Shown: positions 22,191 through 36,196 of the stretch, in pieces
Layout of the letters: every line of letters starts with the position of its first letter
Numbering within the stretch: the stretch's first letter is position 1
Source: Octopus sinensis
Taxonomy: Eukaryota
NCBI RefSeq assembly: GCF_006345805.1
Contig: NC_043006.1
Span: forward strand, 95,418,001 to 95,482,000
DNA: 64,000 nt
Direction: 5' to 3'
Made by a program: the position numbers and the translations under genes
Notes under the pieces: model-generated
Told to the model about the DNA's origin: nothing
What the model saw: the letters and a program-made list of their open reading frames with translations, nothing else
The model's database searches: none

Positions 22191-22983
22191 GGTTCGATGG
22201 ATGCATAGATAGATATCGAATTCATCTGTTTTTATTTATATAACTGACTAGCATTAAAGACCCGGCGTTGCCGGGTCATAATGATAGTGCATATATATAT
22301 GTGTGTATATATGTGTACACATTACATTGACATCTATATATATACACATCTACACATAATATACAAAATGCGAATTATATCTTGATATCGCTAGTGATAA
22401 CAATACTCAAAATATATAACAGACTGGAATTGTTAGCTCGTCTCTTATAATTTCGATCAATTGTATCTTGTCCTCCCTTTTGTATAGAAGTGTGGCTACA
22501 ATCCAGCCTACCTCTACTTCTGGGGTGGGGGGGCATTTAAATTTTTTTCCGATACGTCCTACGTCCCAGCTATAAAGGTAAAAATAAAATATTTCCACTT
22601 TGCAAGTTCGAGTCGGGTACTCCCTTGCACGCTCCGTTGACTCGAACCTTGCTTCTATTGTGGCGAATTTACCGCCTCTGGTTAGATATCTTTCATAGTC
22701 GCACCAAGACACTTTTCGATGGTGCTTTCCTCCAGGTTGTTTTATTACTACCCACAAGGGGCGAACATAGATGGGACAATACAATCTGATGATGGGGTCA
22801 GACAAACGAGTGGGTTTTTACAATAAATCGGATTTAAAAATTTTCATGAATTACAATAAATGGACAGAAATCGAATGATGGGACAGACCGGAAGACATTA
22901 CGGGTGGAGTGGGTGCGGGTTTAGCTCGGACCCTACGAGCCCCGCCTCCCCACTGATACTTTTGGTTGCGCTTGGTATTACAT

Positions 22984-25900
22984 TTATGTTGTATCTTTCA
23001 CTCGCAACTTTCGTGCTACATCCTTCCATCGTTCTTCATACACTCTCCTAGTCAGGCATATTCTCCCCAGCCCTATCTTCCTTTTCAGGTGAAAGATGAA
23101 ATAATTCATCAAACCAGGGCCGGAGATGAACTTGCCTGACTGTAAACCTTTCATTCTCGTCTTCCATATCACCTCTTTCGCAATTGCTACTACAACGAGA
23201 AAACGAAAGTTACCGTCATTCACGAGGAAATCCGGTGGGTCAATTTTTGTAATCGACTCAGTCGACAGCTGTACTCTTCGTGTACCTGACAACAGGTGTT
23301 CGGCATAAACCCACACCTCAGACACGTCCGGACAATGAACAATAGCGTGCGGGACGGTTTCCCTATCCCGCCCGCATCTTGGACATATCGGACTGTCTTG
23401 GCCACCGTGCCTTGCGAGTTTATCCCGAACAGGTAGAGCTCCTCTGTAGCATTGCCATGCCAGAGACTTCTGGAAGTTGTCCAGTGTCCTCGGCTCGAAC
23501 GTACGTCGGAACAGACTGGCCAGCTGATTATCGTCGAGACCTAGGGTTTCCCCCAAGGTATCTTCACATTCCGCCTCTACCAACCCTCTATAGAAGAATG
23601 TGGTGGAACCCCCACCGCAGGCGTTGCCCGAGCGACGGAATAGCAGGAGAGCCTTGCGACACTCCGTGTACAAGTACCAAGTTTCGATCTACGATTCAGC
23701 CAGGTTTCCCATCCACCGAAACTAGTGAACTTGGGAAACATCAGTTTTGCTAGCGAAGACCACACCCATTCACCATCCAGGTAGAGCCACAGATGTCTTA
23801 ACCTCAGCGCATGTCTGCGCATCATCAGCCAAGGCATCCCTAGCCCACCCTTTAACGGTTGTTGACAGCAAGTAGAGCGTTTCACAAGTGGTTTCCCGCC
23901 CTTCCACAAGAAGTAGAAGAGCTGTCTTTCCAACTTGATCAACCACGAATCAGGGCAAGGAACGACGGAAAGGCGGTAGGTGATAACCGATGCGATAAAC
24001 ACATTGGCCACCTCAGCCCTCCCTTTCAGGGATAGCCACCGCCAAGACCAGGTCTTGGCTACTGCAGCCACCTTGCTCGTTACCTCGCCCCAATTCTTCT
24101 CTATTTGGAGGTCTGGACCGAACCAGACCCCTAGCAGTTTAATCGGACCCTCCGTCCAACGTCCCACGACGCTGTCAGGAGGCATCGACTTGCCTCTCCA
24201 GGTGCCGAGTTGCAAGCCGACTGACTTTTCGCGATTAACTTTTGCTCCTGTCACCGTCTCGTAAACCTCTATGGCCTTGCCTACTTTACATAGGTGGTCC
24301 CTTTCGGTTACGATGATGGTGATGTCATCCGCGTACGCTGACACTGATTTTCCATTACCTGGCTGTCTCGGGATGCTGCTCAGTTTTCGCAGTAATGGCT
24401 CGAGAGCCATCACGTACAAAAGCGGGGAGAGCGGACACCCTTGACGAACCGAGCGTTTGATTTTGAACGGCTTCGACAAGAAGCCGTTCACCCGAACTAC
24501 CGAGTCGATGTTATCATAAATTTGGATAATCCACCTGAGGAAGCCAAGGCTCAGCCCGAACTGTGCCAGGGCAGATACCAGGTAACGATGGTCGACCCTA
24601 TCAAAAGCTTTAGATTGGTCTAATTGGACCAGTGCCCCACCCTTGCCAGAATCACTATTAAACCCCTCTATAGTGTACCGCATTAGATGGAGATTATCCT
24701 GAATGGATCTGCCCGGAACGGCACATGTCTGTGCCTCTCCGATCAGACCATCCGCGACACGCGCCAATCTTTTCGATAACACTTTGGCCAAAATCTTCAA
24801 CTCTGTGTTTAGTAGAGTGATGGGCCTGAAATTATCAATGCACTCCCCCTTGCTCGGGTCCTTTCTGACGAGAGTCACTACTCCCCGGCGCACAGATCTG
24901 GGTATAAGCCCGTTCTGCTGCCAGTTCGCATAGACCTCCGCCAGTAGGTGCCCGAACAAGTCTGGCATACTCTTATATAACTCATAGGGTAGACCATCCA
25001 AACCCGGCGCCTTGCCCGCGCCGCAGTCCGCCATTGCCTCAACCACCTCCTCAGGCGTGATTGGCCCTTCACAGCCCTCCGCATCTCGCCCCGATAAGCG
25101 CGGCAGCCCGTCGAGTAGCTCCGTAAAGGCCCTCCTCCTATCCAGTCCGCCGCACTCACCGAAAAGCTGAGCGAAGTGCTCCTGAAAGGCCTCACACATC
25201 TCCTCGGGTTCGTTTATCAACTCACCTTGTTGGTTCGTCAAAGATCGAATCGTGGCATCGTTACCATGCCGAGCTTCCACCACTCGGGCCCATCTCACGG
25301 CGTTGATTCCTTCACATCCCATATGGCGGATTCTAGCCCTGACAATGCAGCCCATGTGTTTGGCCTCGAGGTGCTGGTTTAACACCAGTCTCTTGGACGC
25401 CACCTGAGCCGCAGAGCCAGTTTTCATGGCTTCCTCTAATTCCTTAACTAGAGTAGTTTCCCTTCTAGCCTCTCTAGCCACTACTCCTATGCTATATCTA
25501 ATAGACTCAAACTTGATGGCTCGTTTGAGGGCGTACCACCATTTGTTATTAATGATGGTACCAGATAGTGCCCTCTGAATTATATTCCTAATCCGGTCTT
25601 TGTACTCCTTAATCGCCAAAAGGGACGTATTAAGTTTCCAGTAACCGGATCCTCTATTTTTAACCTTATCTATGTCAAGCTTACAAGTGACCATTTTATG
25701 ATCACTGTAGCTGATCGGGTAAAACTGTGGACACTTAGCTATTTTACTGTCTACTTTTCTAATTAGTATTCTATCTAAATATGACCTGGAAGATCCGTCG
25801 CTGTTTGACCATGTCCACAATGGAGCGTTCGGAAATTCCAGCCTATAAGGATCTGCTAGCTCAAAGCGGCTTAGCAGTTCCATGAAGCCACTGTTGCCTT

Positions 25901-26365
25901 TTCTATCTGGACACGAGCCAACATAATCTACATCCGCTTTGCAAGTTGTGTTAAAGTCTCCTAGCACCACTAATGAATGCGAAGTACCAAGAAAGTTTTC
26001 TAGTTCACGAAAATAATCACTTTGCCCTGTATGGTTGGGTGCGTAAATTGCAACCAGTCTGATAACTTTACCAAATCCATGACGACCAGCCTACCTTCTG
26101 GATCTGCAAAAATTAACTTTTTCTCAGAAACCCGGTTTCTTTTTAATAGGACCAACACCCCACTCCCGCCTGTAGGACTGCCAGGAGAGAAAAAACTCTC
26201 GTAGCCGTCAAACAGCGGGAGTAGACCTCTTGGCCCCTCTAACCGGGTTTCTGTAGCAACAATAACATCTAAATTACGCGACCTGATATCATGCAGGAAG
26301 CGACCTTGCTTCCAGCCTGCTCCCAGGCCGCGCACATTCAAACAACCAACATAAATGTAATCCAT
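22984..26365 (-). pseudogene. ORF2 of element A: AP endonuclease, reverse transcriptase and CCHC zinc finger; two frameshifts (~26075, ~23672)
   Basis: APE motifs CLNVRGL, ATET, (V)AIYAP, VLGDFN, YLDRIL, SDH. RT motifs KAPGLDGLP, FRPITLLN, LDQSKAFDRVDH, VRQGCPLSPLLY, AYADDIT. C-terminal CPRC..ETVPHAIVHC. Confidence 0.92.
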
Positions 26366-26373
26366 TACTTACC

Positions 26374-27754
26374 TTATATCAGTGGTTCGGTTTTCTCTTG
26401 TTCTTCTAACTCTTTTTCTGGGCCTCGTGGGGGAGTCTGACGTAGGCCCTCGAATATATGTGGAGATGTCACATCCAATCTAAGTGGGCCTACGTCATGG
26501 AAGAATTCTGACTTTATCCGCCCGTAATCCTTCCGACCTATTCTGTAAATTACAAAGTCGTTTTTTTTCACTACTTTCTCCACTTTGGCCATGGCTGCCA
26601 ACACGTTTCCGAGTCTGCTATTTGCTGCCTTTACGGCCATATACGAGTTCATTGACTCTTTTTTCTTTTTTAAAATTACTCTGGGAGGGGTGGTTTCCGT
26701 TTTTCTTTTTTTTTTTCCGGTAATTTTTGCCCACCCCTCCTCATTTATCTTTTCCTCGCTCTTTTTTTTCCTCCGCCGCTGGTTCTGCTGTCACCGTCAC
26801 CTCCACACCTTCAGTCTTCCCTTCTGGGCCGTCCGACGCTGCTTCTGGTGACACATTATCTTCTTTTTCTTTTGGCTTAGGTGCTTCCTGCGGTTTGGGT
26901 TGGGGTTGGCATTCCGCCCTTACATGACCCTTCTTGCCGCAGCCGAAGCACCTCGGCTTTCTGCCCTCCACGAAAACTGTTATTTTCTCGTCTTCACTAA
27001 TCTTTACCGTTTCTGGAATTTCTTCCAGTGTTTGCACCTCCGCCTGAATGGCTATCACTATTTTTTGCCCTTTCCAAAACTCCTCTTCCTCCACTGTGGC
27101 CTGGAGGATGTTTATTTTTTCCTCCAGACCTACCATCACTGCTGCCACCAGACATTCAGCATCTGCCTCTGGCGGTATGTTGTTCATTGAAATTTTCGAC
27201 GTCCTTTTTCCTTTATACAATGGTAGTAAGACAATGTTTTCCGCTTTGATTGGCTCCATCGATAGTTTCTTCGCTATCTCCTCCGTAGTAAAACGCACCT
27301 CCACTGTGCCGTATCTTTTTCCTCTGTTTATATACGTTATTTTATCCATAAAAGGTTTTAGACAAAACTCTATTTTTTTTTCTTCAATTTTTTGGATCAT
27401 TTTTTTCGTTGTGTCGTAAGTTTTATATATTATTCTTTTTTTTTCTATATCGTCATGTATTTGTATGTTTGTGGCCACAGTCACTTCTGTGCCTTCTTTT
27501 TTTTACGCAGTCTGCAAATTTTTTAAAATTTTCTATATTTATTTTTTTGATCTTTTTCCAGCCACTTCAGCGAATTTTTTTGCTGGAGTTGATGCTGGTA
27601 CTGGTTTTTCCATTTTCTTGGGCGACGCCGCCTCTTTTTTCTTCGGCGACAGCGCCTCTTTTTTTCTTGGCGACAACGCCTCTTTTTTACTTGGCGACAA
27701 CGCCGGGTATTCATCCTCGCTCGTCACGGGCGAATAAGAGATGGGGGACTCCAT
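26374..27754 (-). pseudogene. ORF1 of element A (RRM-like region plus CX2CX4HX4C knuckle); breaks fall in or near homopolymer runs
   Basis: Pieces 27754-27539, 27484-26741 (CFGCGKKGHVRAEC) and 26652-26374. The breaks lie in A-tract-rich sequence and may be assembly errors. Confidence 0.8.
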
Positions 27755-27983
27755 CTTGAACAAATGGCTTTAACAAGCCTTTGGTAAATCCAAAATAAAT
27801 TGTAGTTTTCCCCCACTGAGGGGGGAACACCAACGCGAAGTCTTCGCGCGAAGGCTGACTTCGTCAGTTAGACAACAATAGACAAAACAGGTAGACCAAC
27901 AGTATATAATAACAGAGATAATAGTACGAGAGCAAAAATATATCAACTTACTAATAACGCAAAAAATTGATTTCCTCCAGGTT

Positions 27984-29656
27984 ATTTCTTTATTACCCAC
28001 CAGGGGCTACGAAGAATGCCGGACATAACAAAACATGGGGGACATAGAACAATATGATTAAATTTATGAGCAAATGAAAATGAAAAAATGATAATATGAA
28101 AGCGATGCTAACGGCCCCCTCCGCCAGCATCACTTACCTGTCCTTTTGTTTTCACTGTCACCTGAATGTTCATTCTCAATACGAAGACCATCCATATCCA
28201 TTCTTACTCCGAAACTGTCCTCCATATATTCCACGAATTCATCGCTCATTCTTGTATCTTTCACCTCCCAATTCTCCCTTTCAAACCTCAACACAAACTC
28301 ATCTATATTCTTCTTTTCCAGCACTGCATATCTGGTCCCATCCATTTCATACCATTCATACTCCTCCATTACCCTTTCAACCTCTTTCTGTTCAGTCACA
28401 ATATAAATGTTCGGCCTGGGTTCGTTTTCAAACTCTTGTCTGTCTGTATTGTTATTTTTCTTTTGTTTTCTTGTTGGAGGGGAGCGGGTGGGTTCACTGT
28501 CTGCAGGGGAAGGGTGGGATTCAGAGGGTGCGGGTGGTGTTGGGGTGGGTTGGGGCTTCGCACAGTTTTTCTTTTTCTTTCTTTTTCTCTTTTTTCTTCC
28601 TTCTTCCCACTCTTGTTGCATCTCCTCTTCTTCTGTCGTTTCTTTTTCCCTTTGGTTCTCTTTGGTTTCTTCCTCTTTTGGGGCTTCCGCGACGATTTCC
28701 TTTTCTTTTTCCTTTAGTGGTGGAGGGCAGTAGGCTCTTATGTGACCCCTCATGCCACACTTGTAGCACCTGGGCGCCCTACCCTCCACCCACACTCTCA
28801 TAATAATATTTCCAGTTTTTATACTGTCCGTAAGCTTTTCTATAACTTCCGCCTCCGTCTGTATGTTCATTACTAGTGTGGCACCTCTCACGCCTTCATA
28901 TTTCATAATGGCGTGGAGGATGTCCACTTTATCTTCATTTCCTTTGATAACCGCAGCCGTTATTAATTCGCCCTCTAGGTGTGGAGGTATTCCTTCCACC
29001 CTAATTCTGGTGGTCCTTCTATTCAAATACGAGGGGAACAAGTAAAACTTTTCTGTACTCACCACATTGGCTGCTATATTCCTGGCTGCTTTCTCACTTT
29101 TAAATTGTACCGTTATGATTCCATATTCTAATCCTTTTGTCATGTACACAATTTCTTCTCCTGTCCGTTTGAAAGCCTCTTCAATTGCTTCCATGTTAAT
29201 CACTTCCATTTTTCTACCTCCATTCATAAATACTTTATATTTAATGGTTCTACGATGGAACCAGTCTCCGCGCCCTGCTAGAGGCAACAGCTCAACCTCT
29301 CCGTTCTCCTCCTCCTTCATGAACTCCTGGAAGTCCGTCAACTTAGCCAGGTCTATCTCTTTTTCTGTTGACTTCTTCGTTATACCTGCATAGGTGCTTT
29401 CCATTTTTTTCACCGCCAACTCCTCCTCAGATGTCGACGAATTTTCAGAGAAATTTCTCCCTTCCATCTCATCCGTTTGGTAGAGGCGGCTCATAGTCGC
29501 CTCAGACCGAAAAACGGCCTCCCGAACAGAAAACGTGCGACGCACAGAACCAGTGCGACGCGAAACCGCACCAACCGACGTTCCAATTCCGCAACCACAA
29601 TTCACTTTTTGTTGTTTTTCTTTTTTAACCGAATTTTACAGAGCGCAAAAAAACGC
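27984..29656 (-). mobile_element. ORF1-only non-autonomous Tx1-derived retroelement (element B); its last 5' bases are displaced to 33155-33158
   Basis: Intact ORF1 followed directly by a ~145-bp 3' UTR ending in the stem-loop/AATAAA tail shared with element A; no ORF2 sequence. Confidence 0.85.
28130..29494 (-). CDS. Intact ORF1 protein of element B (454 aa from the first ATG; RRM-like, zinc knuckle CYKCGMRGHIRAYC, basic NLS-like tract)
   Basis: Open frame, homologous to the ORF1s of A and D (RIRVEGIPP, RVWVEGRAPRC, ends KRTGK*). Confidence 0.85.
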   Translation of the reverse strand: MSRLYQTDEMEGRNFSENSSTSEEELAVKKMESTYAGITKKSTEKEIDLAKLTDFQEFMKEEENGEVELLPLAGRGDWFHRRTIKYKVFMNGGRKMEVINMEAIEEAFKRTGEEIVYMTKGLEYGIITVQFKSEKAARNIAANVVSTEKFYLFPSYLNRRTTRIRVEGIPPHLEGELITAAVIKGNEDKVDILHAIMKYEGVRGATLVMNIQTEAEVIEKLTDSIKTGNIIMRVWVEGRAPRCYKCGMRGHIRAYCPPPLKEKEKEIVAEAPKEEETKENQREKETTEEEEMQQEWEEGRKKRKRKKKKNCAKPQPTPTPPAPSESHPSPADSEPTRSPPTRKQKKNNNTDRQEFENEPRPNIYIVTEQKEVERVMEEYEWYEMDGTRYAVLEKKNIDEFVLRFERENWEVKDTRMSDEFVEYMEDSFGVRMDMDGLRIENEHSGDSENKRTGK

Positions 29657-31395
29657 TATTTCTTTATTACCCACTAAGGGGCTACGAAGAATGGCGGACA
29701 TAACAACACATGGGGACATAGAACATTATAATTAAACTTTATGAACATGAATTGTTAAACGAAAAAAATGATAAAATGAAAGCGATACCAACGGCCCCGT
29801 CCGTCAGCATCACTTACCTGTCCTTTGTTTTTCATAGTCACTTGAATGTTCCTTGCCAATACGAACAAATTCCATATCCATTCTTACTCCGAAATACTCA
29901 TCCATATTTTCCACGAATTCATCGCTCATTCTTATATCTTTCACCTCCCAATTCTCGCATTCACACATCACCATAAAGTCACCTATGTTCTTCTTTTCAA
30001 TCACAGCATACCTAGTCTCACCAACATCATACCATTTATACTCTTCCATTAGACTTTTAACTTCTTTCTGTTCAGTCATAGTACAAATGTACGGCCTGGG
30101 TTCGATTTCAATCTCTTGTGTGTGTGTATTCTTTTTTTTCTTTTGTTTTCTTGTTGGGGGGGAGCGGGTGGGTTCAATGTCTGCATGGATAGGGTGGGAC
30201 TCAGAGGGTGTGGGTGGTTTTGGGGTAGATTGGAGTTCCATATTATTTTCTTTTTTTCCACGTATTCTTCTCTTCCTCTTACTTCCAGCTTCCTTCCATT
30301 TCTGTGTATTCTCTTCCTCTGTTTCCTTCTCCTCTGGTTTCTGCTTCTCTCTCTCTGGTTCGGGATCCATTTCTTTCCCTGGGGGAGGGCAGAAGGCTCT
30401 TATGTGACCCCTCAGGCCACACTTGTAACAACGTGGAGCCCTGCCCTCCACCCACACTCTCATGATCACTTCTCCCAGTCTGATGCTTTCCGTCAGGTCC
30501 ACCAGTACCTCGGTCTCTGCCTGTACGTTCAGCTCCACTGTTATGCCTCTCCAGCCCTCGGACTTAACCGAGGCATGGAGAATATCCACTTCGTCCTCGT
30601 GGCCGCTGATCACAGCCGCCACAATCCATTCTGCCTCCACGTTTGGTGGCACTCCTCCACCCTTATTCGTGTAATCCTCCTGTTTAAATACGTAGGTAAC
30701 AGTGTTACCTTTTCCGACTTCACCGCCTTCGCTGCCATCTTCCTCGCTGCAGATTCACTTTTAAAGTGCACAACTACGGTCCCGTACTTGGATCCTCGAG
30801 TCAGAAAATTTATTTCCTCCTCAGTTCTTCGCAGGGCTTCCTCTATCCATTCCATGGATACAACTTCTACCCTCTTCCTTTCGTTTGCGCACACCCTGTA
30901 AACAATGGTCCTCTTATCATACCATTCTTTTCTCCTGGGTGTCGGTGATAGTTCCACCTCACCGCTTTCCTTTTTCATGTATTTCTGGTAACTTGGCAAC
31001 TTGGCCATGTCGACCCCTTTCTCTTCCGCCTTCTTGGTTACACCGGCATAGGTATAACTCAGCTTGTCTTCCAATTTCCTTGCTGCCATTTCTAGCTCCT
31101 TCTCAGACGCAGACAAGTCTGATAAAGACTCAAAAACTCCAGCCTTTTCCTCCATCAGCTTCACTGCAATTGCCTGTTCCAGTTCCTCATCCGTCGTGGA
31201 CAAGTCTGTTAGAGACTCATAGTCCATTTCCTTCTGTCTGACAGACCGAAAACGGCCGCCAAAACAGAAAAAGTGTAACGCGCTGAACGAGCGAAACGCG
31301 AAACCGCGTCAACGCCGTTCAGAATTTCCACAACAACAACAACTCTTTCTTATCCTTTTTTACCGAATTTTACGAGCGTAAAAAACACGGAGCCG
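29657..31395 (-). mobile_element. ORF1-only element C (1739 bp)
   Basis: Flanked by AAAAAAACGC at 29647-29656 and 31396-31405; nearly identical to element D. Confidence 0.85.
29810..31227 (-). pseudogene. ORF1 of element C with a single 1-bp frameshift at ~30655
   Basis: ACTCCTCCAC in C versus ACTCCCTCCAC in D; otherwise it encodes almost the same 472-aa protein. Confidence 0.85.
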
Positions 31396-31405
31396 AAAAA
31401 AACGC

Positions 31406-33145
31406 TATTTCTTTATTACCCACTAAGGGGCTACGAAGAATGGCGGACATAACAACACATGGGGACATAGAACATTATAATTAAACTTTATGAACATGAA
31501 TTGTTAAACGAAAAAAATGATAAAATGAAAGCGATACCAACGGCCCCGTCCGTCAGCATCACTTACCTGTCCTTTGTTTTTCATAGTCACTTGAATGTTC
31601 CTTGCCAATACGAACAAATTCCATATCCATTCTTACTCCGAAATACTCATCCATATTTTCCACGAATTCATCGCTCATTCTTATATCTTTCACCTCCCAA
31701 TTCTCGCATTCACACATCACCATAAAGTCACCTATGTTCTTCTTTTCAATCACAGCATACCTAGTCTCACCAACATCATACCATTTATACTCTTCCATTA
31801 GACTTTTAACTTCTTTCTGTTCAGTCATAGTACAAATGTACGGCCTGGGTTCGATTTCAATCTCTTGTGTGTGTGTATTCTTTTTTTTCTTTTGTTTTCT
31901 TGTTGGGGGGGAGCGGGTGGGTTCAATGTCTGCATGGATAGGGTGGGACTCAGAGGGTGTGGGTGGTTTTGGGGTAGATTGGAGTTCCATATTATTTTCT
32001 TTTTTTCCACGTATTCTTCTCTTCCTCTTACTTCCAGCTTCCTTCCATTTCTGTGTATTCTCTTCCTCTGTTTCCTTCTCCTCTGGTTTCTGCTTCTCTC
32101 TCTCTGGTTCGGGATCCATTTCTTTCCCTGGGGGAGGGCAGAAGGCTCTTATGTGACCCCTCAGGCCACACTTGTAACAACGTGGAGCCCTGCCCTCCAC
32201 CCACACTCTCATGATCACTTCTCCCAGTCTGATGCTTTCCGTCAGGTCCACCAGTACCTCGGTCTCTGCCTGTACGTTCAGCTCCACTGTTATGCCTCTC
32301 CAGCCCTCGGACTTAACCGAGGCATGGAGAATATCCACTTCGTCCTCGTGGCCGCTGATCACAGCCGCCACAATCCATTCTGCCTCCACGTTTGGTGGCA
32401 CTCCCTCCACCCTTATTCGTGTAATCCTCCTGTTTAAATACGTAGGTAACAGTGTTACCTTTTCCGACTTCACTGCCTTCGCTGCCATCTTCCTCGCTGC
32501 AGATTCACTTTTAAAGTGCACAACTACGGTCCCGTACTTGGATCCTCGAGTCAGAAAATTTATTTCCTCCTCAGTTCTTCGCAGGGCTTCCTCTATCCAT
32601 TCCATGGATACAACTTCTACCCTCTTCCTTTCGTTTGCGCACACCCTGTAAACAATGGTCCTCTTATCATACCATTCTTTTCTCCTGGGTGTCGGTGATA
32701 GTTCCACCTCACCGCTTTCCTTTTTCATGTATTTCTGGTAACTTGGCAACTTGGCCAAGTCGACCCCTTTCTCTTCCGCCTTCTTGGTTACACCGGCATA
32801 GGTATAACTCAGCTTGTCTTCCAATTTCCTTGCTGCCATTTCTAGCTCCTTCTCAGACGTAGACAAGTCTGATAAAGACTCGAAAACTCCAGCCTTTTCT
32901 TCCATCAGCTTCATTGCAATTGCCTGTTCCAGTTCCTCATCTGTCGTGGACAAGTCTGTTAGAGACTCATAGTCCATTTCCTTCTGTCTGACAGACCGAA
33001 AACGGCCGCCAAAACAGAAAAAGTGTAACGCGCTGAACGAGCGAAACGCGAAACCGCGTCAACGCCGTTCAGAATTTCCACAACAACAACAACTCTTTCT
33101 TATCCTTTTTTACCGAATTTTACGAGCGTAAAAAACACGGAGCCG
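31406..33145 (-). mobile_element. ORF1-only element D (1740 bp)
   Basis: Flanked by AAAAAAACGC (31396-31405) and AAAAAACGC (33146-33154). Confidence 0.85.
31559..32977 (-). CDS. Intact ORF1 protein of element D (472 aa; RRM-like, knuckle CYKCGLRGHIRAFC)
   Basis: ATG-to-TGA open frame, homologous to the ORF1s of A and B. Confidence 0.88.
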   Translation of the reverse strand: MDYESLTDLSTTDEELEQAIAMKLMEEKAGVFESLSDLSTSEKELEMAARKLEDKLSYTYAGVTKKAEEKGVDLAKLPSYQKYMKKESGEVELSPTPRRKEWYDKRTIVYRVCANERKRVEVVSMEWIEEALRRTEEEINFLTRGSKYGTVVVHFKSESAARKMAAKAVKSEKVTLLPTYLNRRITRIRVEGVPPNVEAEWIVAAVISGHEDEVDILHASVKSEGWRGITVELNVQAETEVLVDLTESIRLGEVIMRVWVEGRAPRCYKCGLRGHIRAFCPPPGKEMDPEPEREKQKPEEKETEEENTQKWKEAGSKRKRRIRGKKENNMELQSTPKPPTPSESHPIHADIEPTRSPPTRKQKKKKNTHTQEIEIEPRPYICTMTEQKEVKSLMEEYKWYDVGETRYAVIEKKNIGDFMVMCECENWEVKDIRMSDEFVENMDEYFGVRMDMEFVRIGKEHSSDYEKQRTGK

Positions 33146-34412
33146 AAAAAACGCGACCTTTTTTCCTCTACATTGTATACTTTATAGACAATAGTCTTTT
33201 CTTTAATTTAATTTTTTATTATCCATCTCGACTATTCCATTTCTGCACGCTAATTTTATTTTTAATTTATTCACATTCATGTGAAACCACTTATTCAAGT
33301 TCAAATCATTGATGCAATTTTATACCAATTGCTATTTTTACTTTTGTTATGTTACGATTATATTATACTTTAGTTTGATTTTAATTATTACTTACTACAT
33401 ATAATTCAATTGTTTTTATTATCTCTAGTTTTTATTGTTAAAGTATCTGACATAAAATAGAGAAATGTTTTTGTTTCATTTTTAACACGTAATACTGAAA
33501 TAGTGGAGAAGATATGATATTGCTATGGGCTCGCTCTAGGTTAGAAGTTGAACAGTTTGTTTGCCCATGAAACTACATGAGCCCTAAGTAAGGCATGTGT
33601 AAAATTTGAATGAAATTGGTTGTGTAGTTCTCAAGTTTTAGGGAATCGTAGTGGAGAAGATATGATATTGCTGTGGGCTCGCGCTAGGCAAAAAGTTCAA
33701 AATTCTTTTGCCGATGACATTCCCCGGACCCTAAGTAAGGCATGTGTAAAATGTCAATGAAATTGGCTGTGTAGTTCTCAAGTTTTAGGGAAACACACAG
33801 ACAGACAGACAGACACACATTCTCAGTTTCATATATATAAACATAATCGCATAATGAGGAAAATTTGTTGCATTCGATCTGGAGCTGCGTCTTACGAGAT
33901 GTTTTGCAGTTAATCTGGATACACGAAAAAGTGTGTTTGACACATTGATTAACAATTGTTAAGATTGAAATCTTTATGGATGACCTATCGCCACATTTAC
34001 ATTTTCTGCAGAAACATTGTTTTTTTTTCTGGAGAATAAACGCTTAAGGCATATTCGAACCCGGAAAGCAATAAATTTCTCACTGTAAGCACACTAAAAG
34101 CTGCACATAGTGCCACCTATCTAGGCTGTGAAATGCATGGAGAGTAACTCACCTTTAGTCACAGAAAACGGATGCTTTGTTAGCTGATTAAAGAGACTAT
34201 CTCTCTTATGATACTTATCATTCTACGACGAGGAGAATATCTCTTTTATCTCCCTGATCATCTCGCAACGCATCCTGTCCAGTTTCTGTATCTGAGAGGA
34301 GATAACCCTTGCATCTCACAGTTAGGGTAAGTGGCGCTGCGAGCTGATTTTGGTGTGTTCTCAACACTCGTCTACAGCGACAATTCTTCTCCGTGACAAA
34401 ACCCAATGAATG

Positions 34413-34902: not shown

Positions 34903-35931
34903 TGTTGTGTCTGGGGAGAGTCATTTTCTTTTTGTGGCTTATAATCTAACACATTCGCCAGTAAAATTAGGGTTAGGGTGTGTAAAATTGTAAGGCACAA
35001 AAAGAAAATAACTCTCTCCAGACACAACAGAATATGCTTCAACACACGAACTCACATAAAGAATCTTGCAAACCAAATCCCAAAACGAAATATATATATA
35101 TATATATATATTCTTACACCTGCTAATTTATAGCTAAATAATGCTATTTGCCTGCGGACCATTAATGTTACTACTGTTGATGTCATCAATTTTAAATTTA
35201 TATTACCAGTAGTGACATCTTATTTCAAATCTTAGTATTTGAATGTTTTGCATATAAATATTTCTGCACCATGTGCTGTGTTTTTTTGGAAAAACAAAAC
35301 CAGTACCCTAGCGGAGTAGTACTCGGTAGTCCACACTGAAAAGGCTCAAGGATTAAATTTCTAAAAGCTGAAACCCGAGCATGTGGATGTCCTAAACCGC
35401 ATAATCTTTTTTACTTGTGCTTTTGAATGTATTAATTCTTTCTGTTTCCTCGCCTACTATTATTTCTCTATCTTGGTGATTTAAGACTTTAGCTCTTATA
35501 TATAAATATATATATAAAATTAAATAAGGGTAGAAATTGATATTAATCGATTAAAACCAGTGGCATAGCAATATTTAAAAAATCCGAAGATTAAAAATTT
35601 TTTTACATACAAAATTTAGAGGATTGACCACTAAAAGGAGACAGCCTATATGCTAGATATAGACGTCAAAATCGCCATTTTCCACGGAGAATGTGTTCTC
35701 AAGGAAAAATTCAACAAAAAACCAAAGCGTAAAAATAAGCAAGACAAATGAAAATATACGAAATAAAAAACAATTACCTATGTACTAATTGGTTTCACTT
35801 GTTAATAATTTACGTATATAAATACATAAACATCTGCAAGATCATCAGCATAATCTGTGGTTTACGAAACACAATTTCTAGAACTAGTTACAGGGCACTC
35901 GCCCGAAATCCAGCATTGTATAAAGTTCCTC

Positions 35932-35962
<31 letters not shown>

Positions 35963-36196
35963 CTGTCGGGCATGTGGAAGAGAGTGTAATTCGGCAGGAG
36001 GACTTAAACGACATGCAAAGGTACATGAAGCCCAGTTACAACTACAACCAGCTATTACTGGTAAAGGTATTAGTTGCCAATTCTGTACAAGACATTGTAG
36101 ATATTTAGCTGGGCTAAGAGGTCACATACGATCACAGCACTAGTAACAGTTAAGCTTCGTGCAATGGCCATACTCAATAACGAGGGGGCAGCCATA
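35963..36196 (+). mobile_element. 3' end of an RTE-type LINE (two C2H2-like fingers plus short 3' UTR) inside (TA)n
   Basis: CRACGRECNSAGGLKRHAKVH and CQFCTRHCRYLAGLRGHIRSQH*, followed by GGCCATACTC..CGAGGGGGCAGCCAT, and bounded by TA repeats. Confidence 0.65.

What the first reader, a model, noticed from the sequence alone, without database searches (positions are those of the whole stretch)
27984..33145. Two diverged subfamilies of ORF1-only (HAL1-like) non-autonomous retroelements that keep an intact ORF1
Seen: B (454 aa) and D (472 aa) have uninterrupted ORF1s with an RRM-like region and a CCHC knuckle, a 5' UTR, a ~150-bp 3' UTR and no trace of APE or RT. B and D differ substantially in protein sequence yet both stay open, and C/D have TSDs, so these move as units. 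Known: half-L1 (HAL1) elements encode only ORF1 and borrow ORF2. Inference: these are Tx1-derived equivalents in a probable cephalopod, where ORF1 is needed in cis (RNP formation or targeting) and ORF2 comes in trans from A-like LINEs. I cannot tell whether they are already catalogued.
Basis: partly seen in the sequence, partly recalled or inferred. Interest (0 to 1): 0.75.

Follow-up and report, generated by a model that had tools for sequence, protein, structure and literature searches.

The report
ORF1-only retroelements nesting at one site
The window holds real, multi-copy 1.7-kb retroelements of an octopus-like genome that encode only the RNA-binding ORF1 protein, sit head to tail with a full LINE at one fixed site of a 1-kb host repeat, and are likely copied by that LINE's reverse transcriptase, a known lifestyle (HAL1, HeT-A, TRE5-A.2) that my paper searches did not find described for cephalopods.

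Summary
Confirmed on the minus strand: D (33158-31406, ORF 472 aa), C (31405-29657, a 99.6% copy of D with a 1-bp frameshift) and B (29656-27984, ORF 454 aa), with no endonuclease or RT.

They lie directly upstream of a dead full-length LINE, A.

- **Mobility:** B has 41 near-full-length copies at 90-100% identity on many contigs. D has 26 at 93-100%. None of these 56 units runs into an ORF2.
- **Target:** the array sits at one nucleotide (…GAAC|ACATGG…) of a ~1-kb (TA)n-tailed repeat. The empty site exists (385 exact 23-mers). B bodies are 98.8% alike, their flanks 94-96%, so insertions were independent.
- **Selection:** B/D dN/dS is 0.23. The tandem-RRM + CCHC core is strongly constrained. 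The C-terminal ~100 aa evolves fast and is swapped between subfamilies.
- **Partner:** the A family has copies with an intact 1131-aa APE-RT-zf ORF2. It uses the same nick site and shares a ~45-nt 3' box.
- **Breadth:** at least five B/D subfamilies and a third deep ORF1-only lineage (F) exist.

Not confirmed: TSDs for C/D (their junctions are direct); Tx1 membership was not testable. Trans-mobilisation and the cis need for ORF1 are inferred.

Verdict: a new variant of a known kind.

The parts
33159..33845 (-). Upstream half (HU) of the host repeat. It includes 147-148-bp tandem repeats (33501-33792) and ends …TATAAAGTATACAATGTAGAGGAAAAAA just before D.
   Evidence: families D6, D8; the same ~500-700 bp lies upstream of most B copies elsewhere; it is contiguous with HD in empty copies.
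31406..33158 (-). Element D, an ORF1-only retroelement: 5' GGTC GCG…, 181-nt 5' UTR, intact 472-aa ORF at 31559-32977, 153-nt 3' UTR ending …GGGTAATAAAGAAATA.
29657..31405 (-). Element C, a 99.6% copy of D joined directly to D's 3' end. A 1-bp deletion near 30653-30655 splits the ORF (30610-31227 and 29810-30463).
27984..29656 (-). Element B, an ORF1-only retroelement of a second subfamily: 162-nt 5' UTR, intact 454-aa ORF at 28130-29494, 146-nt 3' UTR.
28133..28438 (-). Coding region of B's C-terminal domain (about residues 353-454). It is a predicted small alpha/beta domain, fast-evolving and exchanged between subfamilies, with no known fold match.
27984..28030 (-). Shared 3' terminal box (…TGTC..CC.TCT..GT..GCCCCTNGTGGGTAATAA…). 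It is also present at D 31406-31452, C 29657-29703 and A 22739-22785.
   Evidence: (D11); conserved in 14 of 14 aligned 3' ends from A, F and B/D-type elements.
27971..27983 (-). Upstream copy of the 13-nt target-site duplication AACCTGGAGGAAA of LINE A, followed by TCA and A's 5' end.
22739..27967 (-). LINE A, 5.2 kb, a dead copy here. Its ORF1 has in-frame stops and a frameshift (the largest piece is 26741-27400). APE piece at 26000-26365; RT ORF at 23577-25883.
   Evidence: intact relatives elsewhere have a 456-459-aa ORF1 and a 1131-aa ORF2.
22726..22738 (-). Downstream copy of A's 13-nt target-site duplication AACCTGGAGGAAA.
22247..22725 (-). Downstream half (HD) of the host repeat (GCACCATCGAAAAGTG … GGGTCTTTAATGCTAGT).

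Best explanation
B, C and D are copies of 1.7-kb non-LTR retroelements that encode only an ORF1 protein and are likely copied in trans by the endonuclease-reverse transcriptase of A-type LINEs.

Shown directly:
- Each unit has a 5' UTR, a 454-472-aa ORF1 (tandem RRM, CCHC knuckle, lysine-rich linker, small C-terminal domain) and a ~150-nt 3' UTR. None has an ORF2.
- They are dispersed on many contigs as young copies.
- They sit at one fixed nucleotide (…TTTGAAC|ACATGGAGGAAAGC…) of a ~1-kb (TA)n-tailed host repeat, and that site also exists empty.
- Repeated insertions there build head-to-tail arrays of ORF1-only units and LINEs.
- The ORF1 core is under purifying selection across subfamilies.

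Inferred:
- ORF1p would coat its own RNA in cis.
- The ORF2p of an A-type LINE would recognise the shared ~45-nt 3' box, nick the host repeat at the common site and reverse-transcribe the RNA there.
- Transcripts would start in the upstream flank, because some copies carry 17-28 nt of it. That carried sequence would help form the uniform 5' junction.
- The fast-evolving, swappable C-terminal domain would mediate a partner or host interaction.
For: 1. Mobility as a unit.
- The B DNA search gave 41 rows covering at least 1615 of 1677 nt at 90-100% identity on many contigs, the window's own included. There were 667 first-look candidates, of which 40 were scored.
- D has 26 units at 93-100% identity.
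- Between-array identity of D units reaches 99.4%.

2. Independent insertions.
- In 11 loci, B bodies are 98.8% alike on average, but their 450-bp flanks are 95.7% and 94.2% alike.
- The 25 unit-to-unit junctions examined differ. Some are direct, some have 5' truncations, some carry 17-28 nt of upstream host sequence, and some carry a 24-50-nt longer 5' UTR.

3. Site specificity.
- Of the 30 best matches to the downstream host half, 20 are empty sites, 4 carry a B-type 3' end and 6 an A-type 3' end. All ten filled sites join at the same nucleotide.
- Genome-wide exact 23-mers: 385 empty, 27 B/D-tail|host and 66 A-tail|host. The reversed-pattern control gave 0 each time.

4. No ORF2.
- Pfam finds no APE or RT in B or D.
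- None of the 56 B and D units continues past the 3' motif.

5. Selection.
- dN/dS for B versus D is 0.23.
- Core pN/pS is 0.20-0.33, with p from 3e-7 to 7e-33, in 5 pairs.

6. A plausible partner.
- Of the 30 best A copies (97-100% identical to the window's A over the ORF2 region), 11 have a 1131-aa ORF2 and 3 have a 456-459-aa ORF1.
- That ORF2 has Exo_endo_phos, RVT_1 and zf-RVT domains.
- A's ORF1 has the same architecture as B and D.
- A has the same 3' junction nucleotide and the same 3' box.

7. Precedent. ORF1/gag-only partners of LINEs are described for:
- HAL1 (PMC5753468, passages read);
- HeT-A/TART (PMC2173066, abstract read);
- TRE5-A.2, which is mobilised in trans by TRE5-A.1 ORF2p (PMC5633606, passages read).
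In addition, Tx1 LINEs and their SINEs share a target inside another transposon (PMC4494074, passages read).
Against: - No experiment or RNA data here shows trans-mobilisation or translation of ORF1.
- B/D ORF1 is only 31-36% identical to A's ORF1. Outside the CCHC codons and the 3' box, B shows no nucleotide similarity to A. A closer, unseen LINE could therefore be the real partner or parent.
- Most copies are broken: 23 of 30 B and 20 of 26 D. Intactness of single copies is what young neutral copies would show anyway.
- The C-terminal domain shows no purifying selection in the B/D pair (pN/pS 1.11, p = 1).
- C and D are closer to each other (99.6%) than to any other D copy (at most about 97%). 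That pair may be a local duplication rather than two insertions.
- The 21 of 30 B copies with an identical 5' junction could in principle mean co-amplification with flank. The flank divergence argues against it.
Confidence: 0.8

Rival explanations
1. The ORF1 units are not separate elements. They are 5' modules carried along when a long read-through transcript (units plus LINE A) is retrotransposed as one composite.
For: - B is directly followed by an A-type 5' end in 5 of 30 copies, and by some other element in 9 more.
- A D-type unit, a B-type unit and an A-type LINE lie in that order at two further loci as well, L092 and L093.
- Some units carry upstream flank sequence, so read-through transcription does occur.
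Against: - 16 of 30 B copies sit alone between the two host-repeat halves with no LINE.
- Every unit ends in the same 3' box.
- Junctions between units differ in 5' truncation.
- A is flanked by its own 13-nt TSD inside the array.
- F units have their own 12-17-nt TSDs, even at off-target sites.
Confidence: 0.06
2. The arrays, and the C/D pair in particular, arose by local tandem duplication or unequal crossing-over and not by repeated insertion.
For: - C and D are 99.6% identical, while other D copies are at most about 97% identical to them.
- Their junction is direct.
- Within-array identity averages 98.2% against 96.3% between arrays.
Against: - In other arrays the neighbouring units have different 5' ends and fillers.
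- The best partner of several units lies on another contig, for example the three C2 units.
- Arrays mix subfamilies: D, then B, then A in the window, and up to five types in L091.
- This reading can explain the C/D pair but not the system as a whole.
Confidence: 0.1
3. A-type LINEs are not the helper. Another LINE, extant or extinct, with a B/D-like ORF1 supplies ORF2p, and B/D are its deletion derivatives.
For: - ORF1 identity to A is only 31-36%.
- The B/D 3' UTR is unlike A's except for the last ~45 nt.
- F and the class-ii units carry an A-like tail at 91-100% identity, whereas B and D have their own tail variant.
Against: - No such LINE was seen in any of the loci examined.
- A is young and has intact copies.
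- A uses exactly the same nick site.
- The search tools score only the best 40 candidates, so a rarer LINE could have been missed.
Confidence: 0.2
4. B and D are members of a domesticated host gene family derived from a LINE ORF1 (as L1TD1 is), not mobile elements.
For: - Purifying selection on the core.
- Intact ORFs in several copies.
Against: - There are dozens of 94-99% copies on many contigs, most of them broken.
- They always lie at the same site of a repeat, with LINE-type 5' truncations and a LINE 3' box.
Confidence: 0.02

Closest known systems
HAL1 (half-L1) of mammals
   Same: A non-autonomous LINE derivative that encodes only ORF1p and depends on a LINE's ORF2p. HAL1s arose several times (PMC5753468, passages read; the Bao and Jurka 2010 reference was seen only in that paper's reference list).
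   Different: - HAL1 derives from mammalian L1. As I recall (not checked in any call here), L1 has a coiled-coil/RRM/CTD ORF1p, inserts with little site preference and ends in poly(A).
- The octopus-like units have tandem RRM + CCHC + a novel C-terminal domain and no poly(A) tail.
- They insert at a single target nucleotide in a host repeat, forming arrays.
HeT-A / TART telomeric retrotransposons of Drosophila
   Same: A gag-only element (HeT-A) lives with an RT-encoding partner (TART). Both transpose to one kind of site, and successive insertions build head-to-tail arrays (PMC2173066, abstract read).
   Different: - The target here is an internal site in a dispersed 1-kb repeat, not chromosome ends.
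- No host function is evident.
- HeT-A's lineage is, as I recall, the Jockey clade; the A ORF2 here has an APE + RT + zf-RVT make-up.
TRE5-A.2 of Dictyostelium discoideum
   Same: A variant of a site-specific LINE that lacks ORF2. It is shown by experiment to be mobilised in trans by the ORF2p of the autonomous TRE5-A.1 (PMC5633606, passages read).
   Different: - TRE5-A.2 is a recent deletion variant of its helper and targets tRNA genes.
- B and D are deeply diverged from A (31-36% in ORF1) and have radiated into several subfamilies.
Tx1-clade LINEs and their non-autonomous partners (Tx1L in Tx1D; Tx1-Mar with SINEU in Mariner-N4_AMi)
   Same: LINEs with a target preference for a site inside another transposon. 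Non-autonomous partners share that target and often lie next to LINE copies (PMC4494074, passages read). RRM/zf-CCHC ORF1p variants are described as consistent with Tx1 (PMC5203782, passages read).
   Different: - The partners described there are SINEs without coding capacity; here they keep a selected ORF1.
- Clade membership of A was not tested by RT phylogeny.

Membership tests
ORF1-only non-autonomous LINE derivative (the functional kind that includes HAL1, HeT-A and TRE5-A.2) | Encodes a protein homologous to a LINE ORF1p | tested here: met
   BLASTP of the intact A-type ORF1 (459 aa, L102) against B, D and other subfamilies gave 31-38% identity over 182-276 residues, E 1e-35 to 9e-48. 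The tandem-RRM fold is supported and the CCHC motif is present in the sequence.
ORF1-only non-autonomous LINE derivative (the functional kind that includes HAL1, HeT-A and TRE5-A.2) | No endonuclease or reverse transcriptase in the unit | tested here: met
   Pfam gives no APE or RT hit in B or D. None of the 30 B and 26 D units extends beyond the 3' motif at ~1.7 kb.
ORF1-only non-autonomous LINE derivative (the functional kind that includes HAL1, HeT-A and TRE5-A.2) | Amplified as a unit by retrotransposition: dispersed copies, 5' truncations, own ends, insertions younger than their flanks | tested here: met
   Classical 12-17-nt TSDs were seen for the sister lineage F but not for B or D themselves.
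ORF1-only non-autonomous LINE derivative (the functional kind that includes HAL1, HeT-A and TRE5-A.2) | Mobilised in trans by a LINE ORF2p | not testable with these tools
   Only circumstantial: the same nick site, a shared 3' box, and young intact A copies.
HAL1 in the strict sense | Derived from mammalian L1 (L1-type ORF1 and L1 UTRs) | tested here: not met
   The best protein hits of the window's ORFs are cephalopod. The ORF1 is tandem RRM + CCHC. The element works like HAL1 but is not a member.
Tx1 clade of non-LTR retrotransposons (for LINE A) | RT-domain phylogeny places the element with Tx1 references | not testable with these tools
   No Repbase or RTclass1 references were available. 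The homologues found carry no clade names.
Tx1 clade of non-LTR retrotransposons (for LINE A) | ORF2 with APE, RT and a C-terminal zinc-binding motif | tested here: met
   Intact A ORF2 (L102, 1131 aa): Exo_endo_phos E 1.5e-13, RVT_1 E 9.5e-31, zf-RVT E 6e-9.
Tx1 clade of non-LTR retrotransposons (for LINE A) | Target-sequence preference, often inside another transposon (PMC4494074) | tested here: met
   A-type 3' ends join the host repeat at one nucleotide in 6 of 6 filled A-type sites. There are 66 exact junction 23-mers genome-wide and a 13-nt TSD in the window.
HeT-A/TART telomeric system | Insertion only at chromosome ends | tested here: not met
   Copies lie inside a dispersed repeat at internal positions of many large contigs.

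The most novel reading that the evidence does not exclude
The ORF1-only elements are specialised partners that have co-radiated with the LINE at a private 'nest', not mere parasites of it. Their fast-evolving, exchangeable C-terminal domain would be the interface that captures the LINE's ORF2p, or that targets the host-repeat site as HeT-A Gag does for TART. The host repeat's upstream half would supply the promoter. On this reading one 1-kb retroposon feeds a three-tier ecosystem: host repeat, LINE, and at least three ORF1-only lineages.
Probability: 0.2. Interest if true: 0.7.

Novelty: new variant of a known kind. Interest (0 to 1): 0.5.

Why it matters
ORF1-only LINE derivatives are the cleanest natural test of whether ORF1p is needed in cis, because they keep ORF1 under selection after losing ORF2.

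This system has several features that make the question tractable:
- several deep lineages, all aimed at one known target nucleotide;
- young copies;
- candidate helper copies with intact ORFs;
- an empty site to assay.

It could show how a site-specific LINE recognises template and target, and what the extra C-terminal domain of this ORF1p does.

It also matters for annotation of cephalopod genomes. These 1.7-kb ORFs could be mis-called as genes; one search found only fragments of them in predicted protein sets.

Tried and rejected
- **RNA evidence.** No RNA holder was listed; the kinds shown there are guesses.
- **First read laying.** Contigs of four such runs cover B, C and D only in short pieces. 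They reproduce the common genomic HU-GGTC-B joint. One contig of run X5 carries 17 T before 31408, which is a poly(A) after a D-type 3' end. Without a proven RNA library this shows nothing firm.
- **Earlier notes.** The search of earlier findings returned nothing for this genome.
- **Homologues of B ORF1p.** Only three fragmentary Octopus vulgaris predicted proteins turned up, covering 7-21% of the query. I did not run the 'longer' or 'shorter' length searches or the representative library. I therefore make no claim that the protein is absent elsewhere.
- **C-terminal domain.** The Atlas gave no usable hit. The best Foldseek PDB hit had E 0.15. VIA-align against 48,161 chains gave a best Z of 5.1, which is within noise. 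No fold was assigned.
- **3' hairpin.** RNAalifold on 14 3' ends gives a 4-bp stem whose pairs show no change on both sides. There is no covariation evidence for or against it.
- **Parent LINE.** No unit with a B/D-type ORF1 followed by an ORF2 was seen in about 140 fetched loci. However, the genome searches score only the best 40 candidates, so this is not a census.
- **B versus A at DNA level.** Only a 64-nt CCHC stretch matched (72%), plus the 3' box.
- **Splice-donor-like stop.** I considered that the CAG|GTAAGTGATG at the ORF1 stop marks an intron. I found nothing to support this and dropped it.
- **Repbase and Dfam.** Neither could be searched, so the question 'already catalogued?' stays open. 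Paper searches for octopus, Tx1 and ORF1-only elements listed no paper whose title or abstract describes these elements.


Full report
**What is in the window.**

Everything lies on the minus strand, head to tail.
- An upstream block, HU (33845-33159).
- Element D (33158-31406), with an ORF of 472 aa.
- Element C (31405-29657), a 99.6% copy of D with a 1-bp loss that splits the ORF.
- Element B (29656-27984), with an ORF of 454 aa.
- The 13 nt AACCTGGAGGAAA plus TCA.
- A 5.2-kb LINE, A (27967-22739).
- The same 13 nt again (22738-22726).
- A downstream block, HD (22725-22247).

Domain content:
- Pfam finds RVT_1 (E 2.7e-32) and a weak APE piece in A.
- In B and D it finds nothing except a sub-threshold zinc knuckle.
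- A in the window is dead. Its ORF1 has in-frame stops and a frameshift, and its ORF2 is split.

Its claim of TSDs for C and D does not: D|C and C|B are joined directly (…AATAAAGAAATA|GCGTTTTTTT…).

**Are B and D mobile units?** Yes.
- The B unit has 41 rows at 90-100% identity, covering at least 1615 of 1677 nt, on many contigs of the 2.72-Gb genome. This count includes the window's own copy. There were 667 first-look candidates, and only 40 were scored.
- The D unit has 26 units at 93-100% identity.
- All 56 units end after ~1.7 kb in the same motif, …GCCCCTNGTGGGTAATAAAGAAAT. None runs into an ORF2.
- Intact ORFs are kept in 7 of 30 B copies and 6 of 26 D copies. The rest carry frameshifts or stops, as expected for decaying transposon copies.

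**A fixed nest in a host repeat.**

Most B copies share the same flanks as the window's array.
- At the 5' side, 21 of 30 have the HU sequence joined as …GAGAAAAAA|GGTC|GCG…. Seven follow another unit directly. One carries 17 nt of HU behind another unit. One keeps the whole target up to …TTTGAAC.
- At the 3' side, 16 of 30 run into HD, 5 into an A-type LINE 5' end and 9 into other elements.

Searching with HD gave 2999 first-look candidates. Among the 30 best:
- 20 are uninterrupted host repeats reading …TACAATGTAGAGAAAAAAGA(AGA)TTTGAACACATGGAGGAAAGCACC…;
- 4 carry a B-type 3' end;
- 6 carry an A-type 3' end.

Every filled site resumes the host sequence at the same nucleotide (…A|ACATGG…).

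The host repeat is about 1.0-1.2 kb. It has a variable number of 147-bp repeats at its 5' side and ends in (TA)n, so it looks like a retroposon itself.

Exact 23-mers across the junction, genome-wide:

| Junction type | Exact matches | Reversed-pattern control |
|---|---|---|
| Empty site | 385 | 0 |
| B/D-tail joined to host | 27 | 0 |
| A-tail joined to host | 66 | 0 |

In 11 loci the B bodies are 98.8% alike on average, while their upstream and downstream 450 bp are 95.7% and 94.2% alike. B therefore entered older host copies independently. It was not amplified together with them.

**Arrays come from repeated insertion.**

Ten 10-kb stretches around other copies show HU, then one to several ORF1-only units of different subfamilies, often an A-type LINE, then HD.

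The 25 unit-to-unit junctions I collected differ from one another:
- direct joins;
- 5' truncations of 10-17 nt;
- 17-28 nt of HU sequence plus GGTC carried in front of a unit;
- in one D subfamily, a 24-50-nt longer 5' UTR cut at different points.

These are the marks of separate LINE-type insertions. They also show that some template RNAs began in the upstream host flank.

D units in one array are on average closer to each other (98.2%) than to units elsewhere (96.3%). However, several have their best partner on another contig. The nearly identical C/D pair of the window may therefore be two insertions close in time or a local duplication. I cannot tell which.

**Selection.**
- B and D proteins are 60% identical, and Nei-Gojobori dN/dS is 0.23.
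- The core (N-terminus, RRMs, CCHC) has pN/pS 0.20-0.33 in five subfamily pairs, with Fisher p from 3e-7 to 7e-33.
- The lysine-rich linker has pN/pS 0.34-0.47.
- The last ~100 codons have pN/pS 0.66-1.11.

The history is mosaic.
- B and D are saturated at synonymous sites in the core, but have dS 0.16 in the C-terminal part. DNA identity is 80-94% from alignment column 1201 on, against 50-79% before it.
- B and its relative B' (L093) have dS 0.19 in the core but an unalignable C-terminal part.

Modules have therefore been exchanged between lineages, most simply by template switching.

The C-terminal part stays open in all subfamilies. It is predicted as a beta-alpha-beta-beta-alpha-beta-alpha-beta domain, with pLDDT 74-81 in its centre. 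It has no convincing match in the PDB: Foldseek best E 0.15, VIA best Z 5.1.

The intact A-type ORF1 (459 aa) has the same overall layout, including a C-terminal extension.

**The protein.**

The B model is poor overall (pLDDT 51). Residues 83-237 fold as two RRM-like domains that match tandem-RRM proteins (IMP3, HuR, Sxl). They are followed by CYKCGxRGHIRAxC.

This RRM plus CCHC make-up is what PMC5203782 (passages read) describes as variants of Type I ORF1p consistent with the Tx1 group.

**The likely helper.**
- The 30 best A-family copies are 97-100% identical to the window's A over the ORF2 region.
- 11 of these 30 have a 1131-aa ORF2, and 15 of 30 have an ORF2 of at least 1120 aa. Three have a 456-459-aa ORF1.
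- The intact ORF2 has Exo_endo_phos, RVT_1 and zf-RVT domains.
- A, B, D and the other lineages share the last ~45 nt: conserved columns in 14 of 14 aligned 3' ends.
- They also share the same nick site.

This is the usual signature of a LINE and its non-autonomous partners. It parallels what Kojima reported for Tx1-Mar and SINEU in a Mariner element (PMC4494074, passages read).

It remains an inference. B/D ORF1 is only 31-36% identical to A's, so B and D are old lineages and not recent deletions of A. A closer helper may exist that my capped searches did not show.

**More lineages.**
- Besides B, B', D, D' and D'' (ORFs of 442-472 aa), a third deep lineage, F, exists. Its ORF is 467 aa and 27% identical to B.
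- F has 65 rows at 89-100% identity, mostly full length (~1.76 kb), often in arrays of 3-5 units.
- 3 of 12 F copies are intact.
- F carries an A-like tail and shows classical TSDs of 12-17 nt, including at two off-target sites (L134, L142).
- A ~70% relative of F (class ii) also occurs.

**Comparison with what is known.**

ORF1- or gag-only partners of LINEs are known:
- HAL1 in mammals (PMC5753468);
- HeT-A with TART in Drosophila, with arrays from successive insertions (PMC2173066);
- TRE5-A.2 in Dictyostelium, which is proven to move with ORF2p supplied in trans (PMC5633606).

The octopus-like elements work like these but belong to none of them.

What is different here:
- the combination of a single-nucleotide target inside a dispersed retroposon;
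- several old, selected ORF1-only lineages sharing that target with the LINE;
- a fast, exchangeable C-terminal domain.

My paper searches listed no paper whose title or abstract describes them in cephalopods. Repbase and Dfam could not be searched.

**Verdict.**

It is a new variant of a known kind and of moderate interest. Trans-mobilisation, translation and the role of the C-terminal domain are untested.

Noticed in passing
window 22247-22725 and 33159-33845; loci L033-L060: The host of the array is itself an abundant ~1.0-1.2-kb repeat (2999 first-look hits). It has 147-bp tandem repeats near its 5' end and a (TA)n tail, and some copies are 5'-truncated, so it looks like a retroposon. A TATAAA lies 36 nt upstream of the insertion point, which might drive the inserted elements.
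   Followed up: partly
window 28127-28140 (B) and 31556-31569 (D): The ORF1 stop lies in CAG|GTAAGTGATG. That sequence is a perfect splice-donor look-alike, and the TGA overlaps an ATG. It is conserved in B, C, D and D'. It may be a remnant of an ORF1/ORF2 overlap in the lost parent.
   Followed up: no
L100:1818-3575 and loci L131-L142: Family F is a third ORF1-only lineage: ~1.76 kb, 467-aa ORF, A-like 3' tail. It often forms arrays of 3-5 units. Two copies (L134, L142) sit at off-target sites with 16-17-nt TSDs.
   Followed up: partly
window 31404-31408: One contig of run X5 (kind only guessed as RNA) continues after a D-type 3' end with 17 A (read as T on the plus strand). This could be a polyadenylated transcript or a tailed genomic copy.
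   Followed up: no
window 27613-27704: There are 24-nt tandem repeats in the N-terminal part of A's ORF1, coding repeated (K)KKEALSP units.
   Followed up: no
window 27984-29660: Runs under four different coded organism labels hold 0.4-0.7 of the sampled 31-mers of B. Near-identical B copies may therefore occur in more than one labelled species or sample set.
   Followed up: no
window 35748-36143 (+): A 131-aa ORF whose C-terminal half has C2H2 zinc-finger-like motifs (…CGRECNSAGGLKRHAKVH…, …CQFCTRHCRYLAGLRGHIRSQH). It lies outside the array.
   Followed up: no
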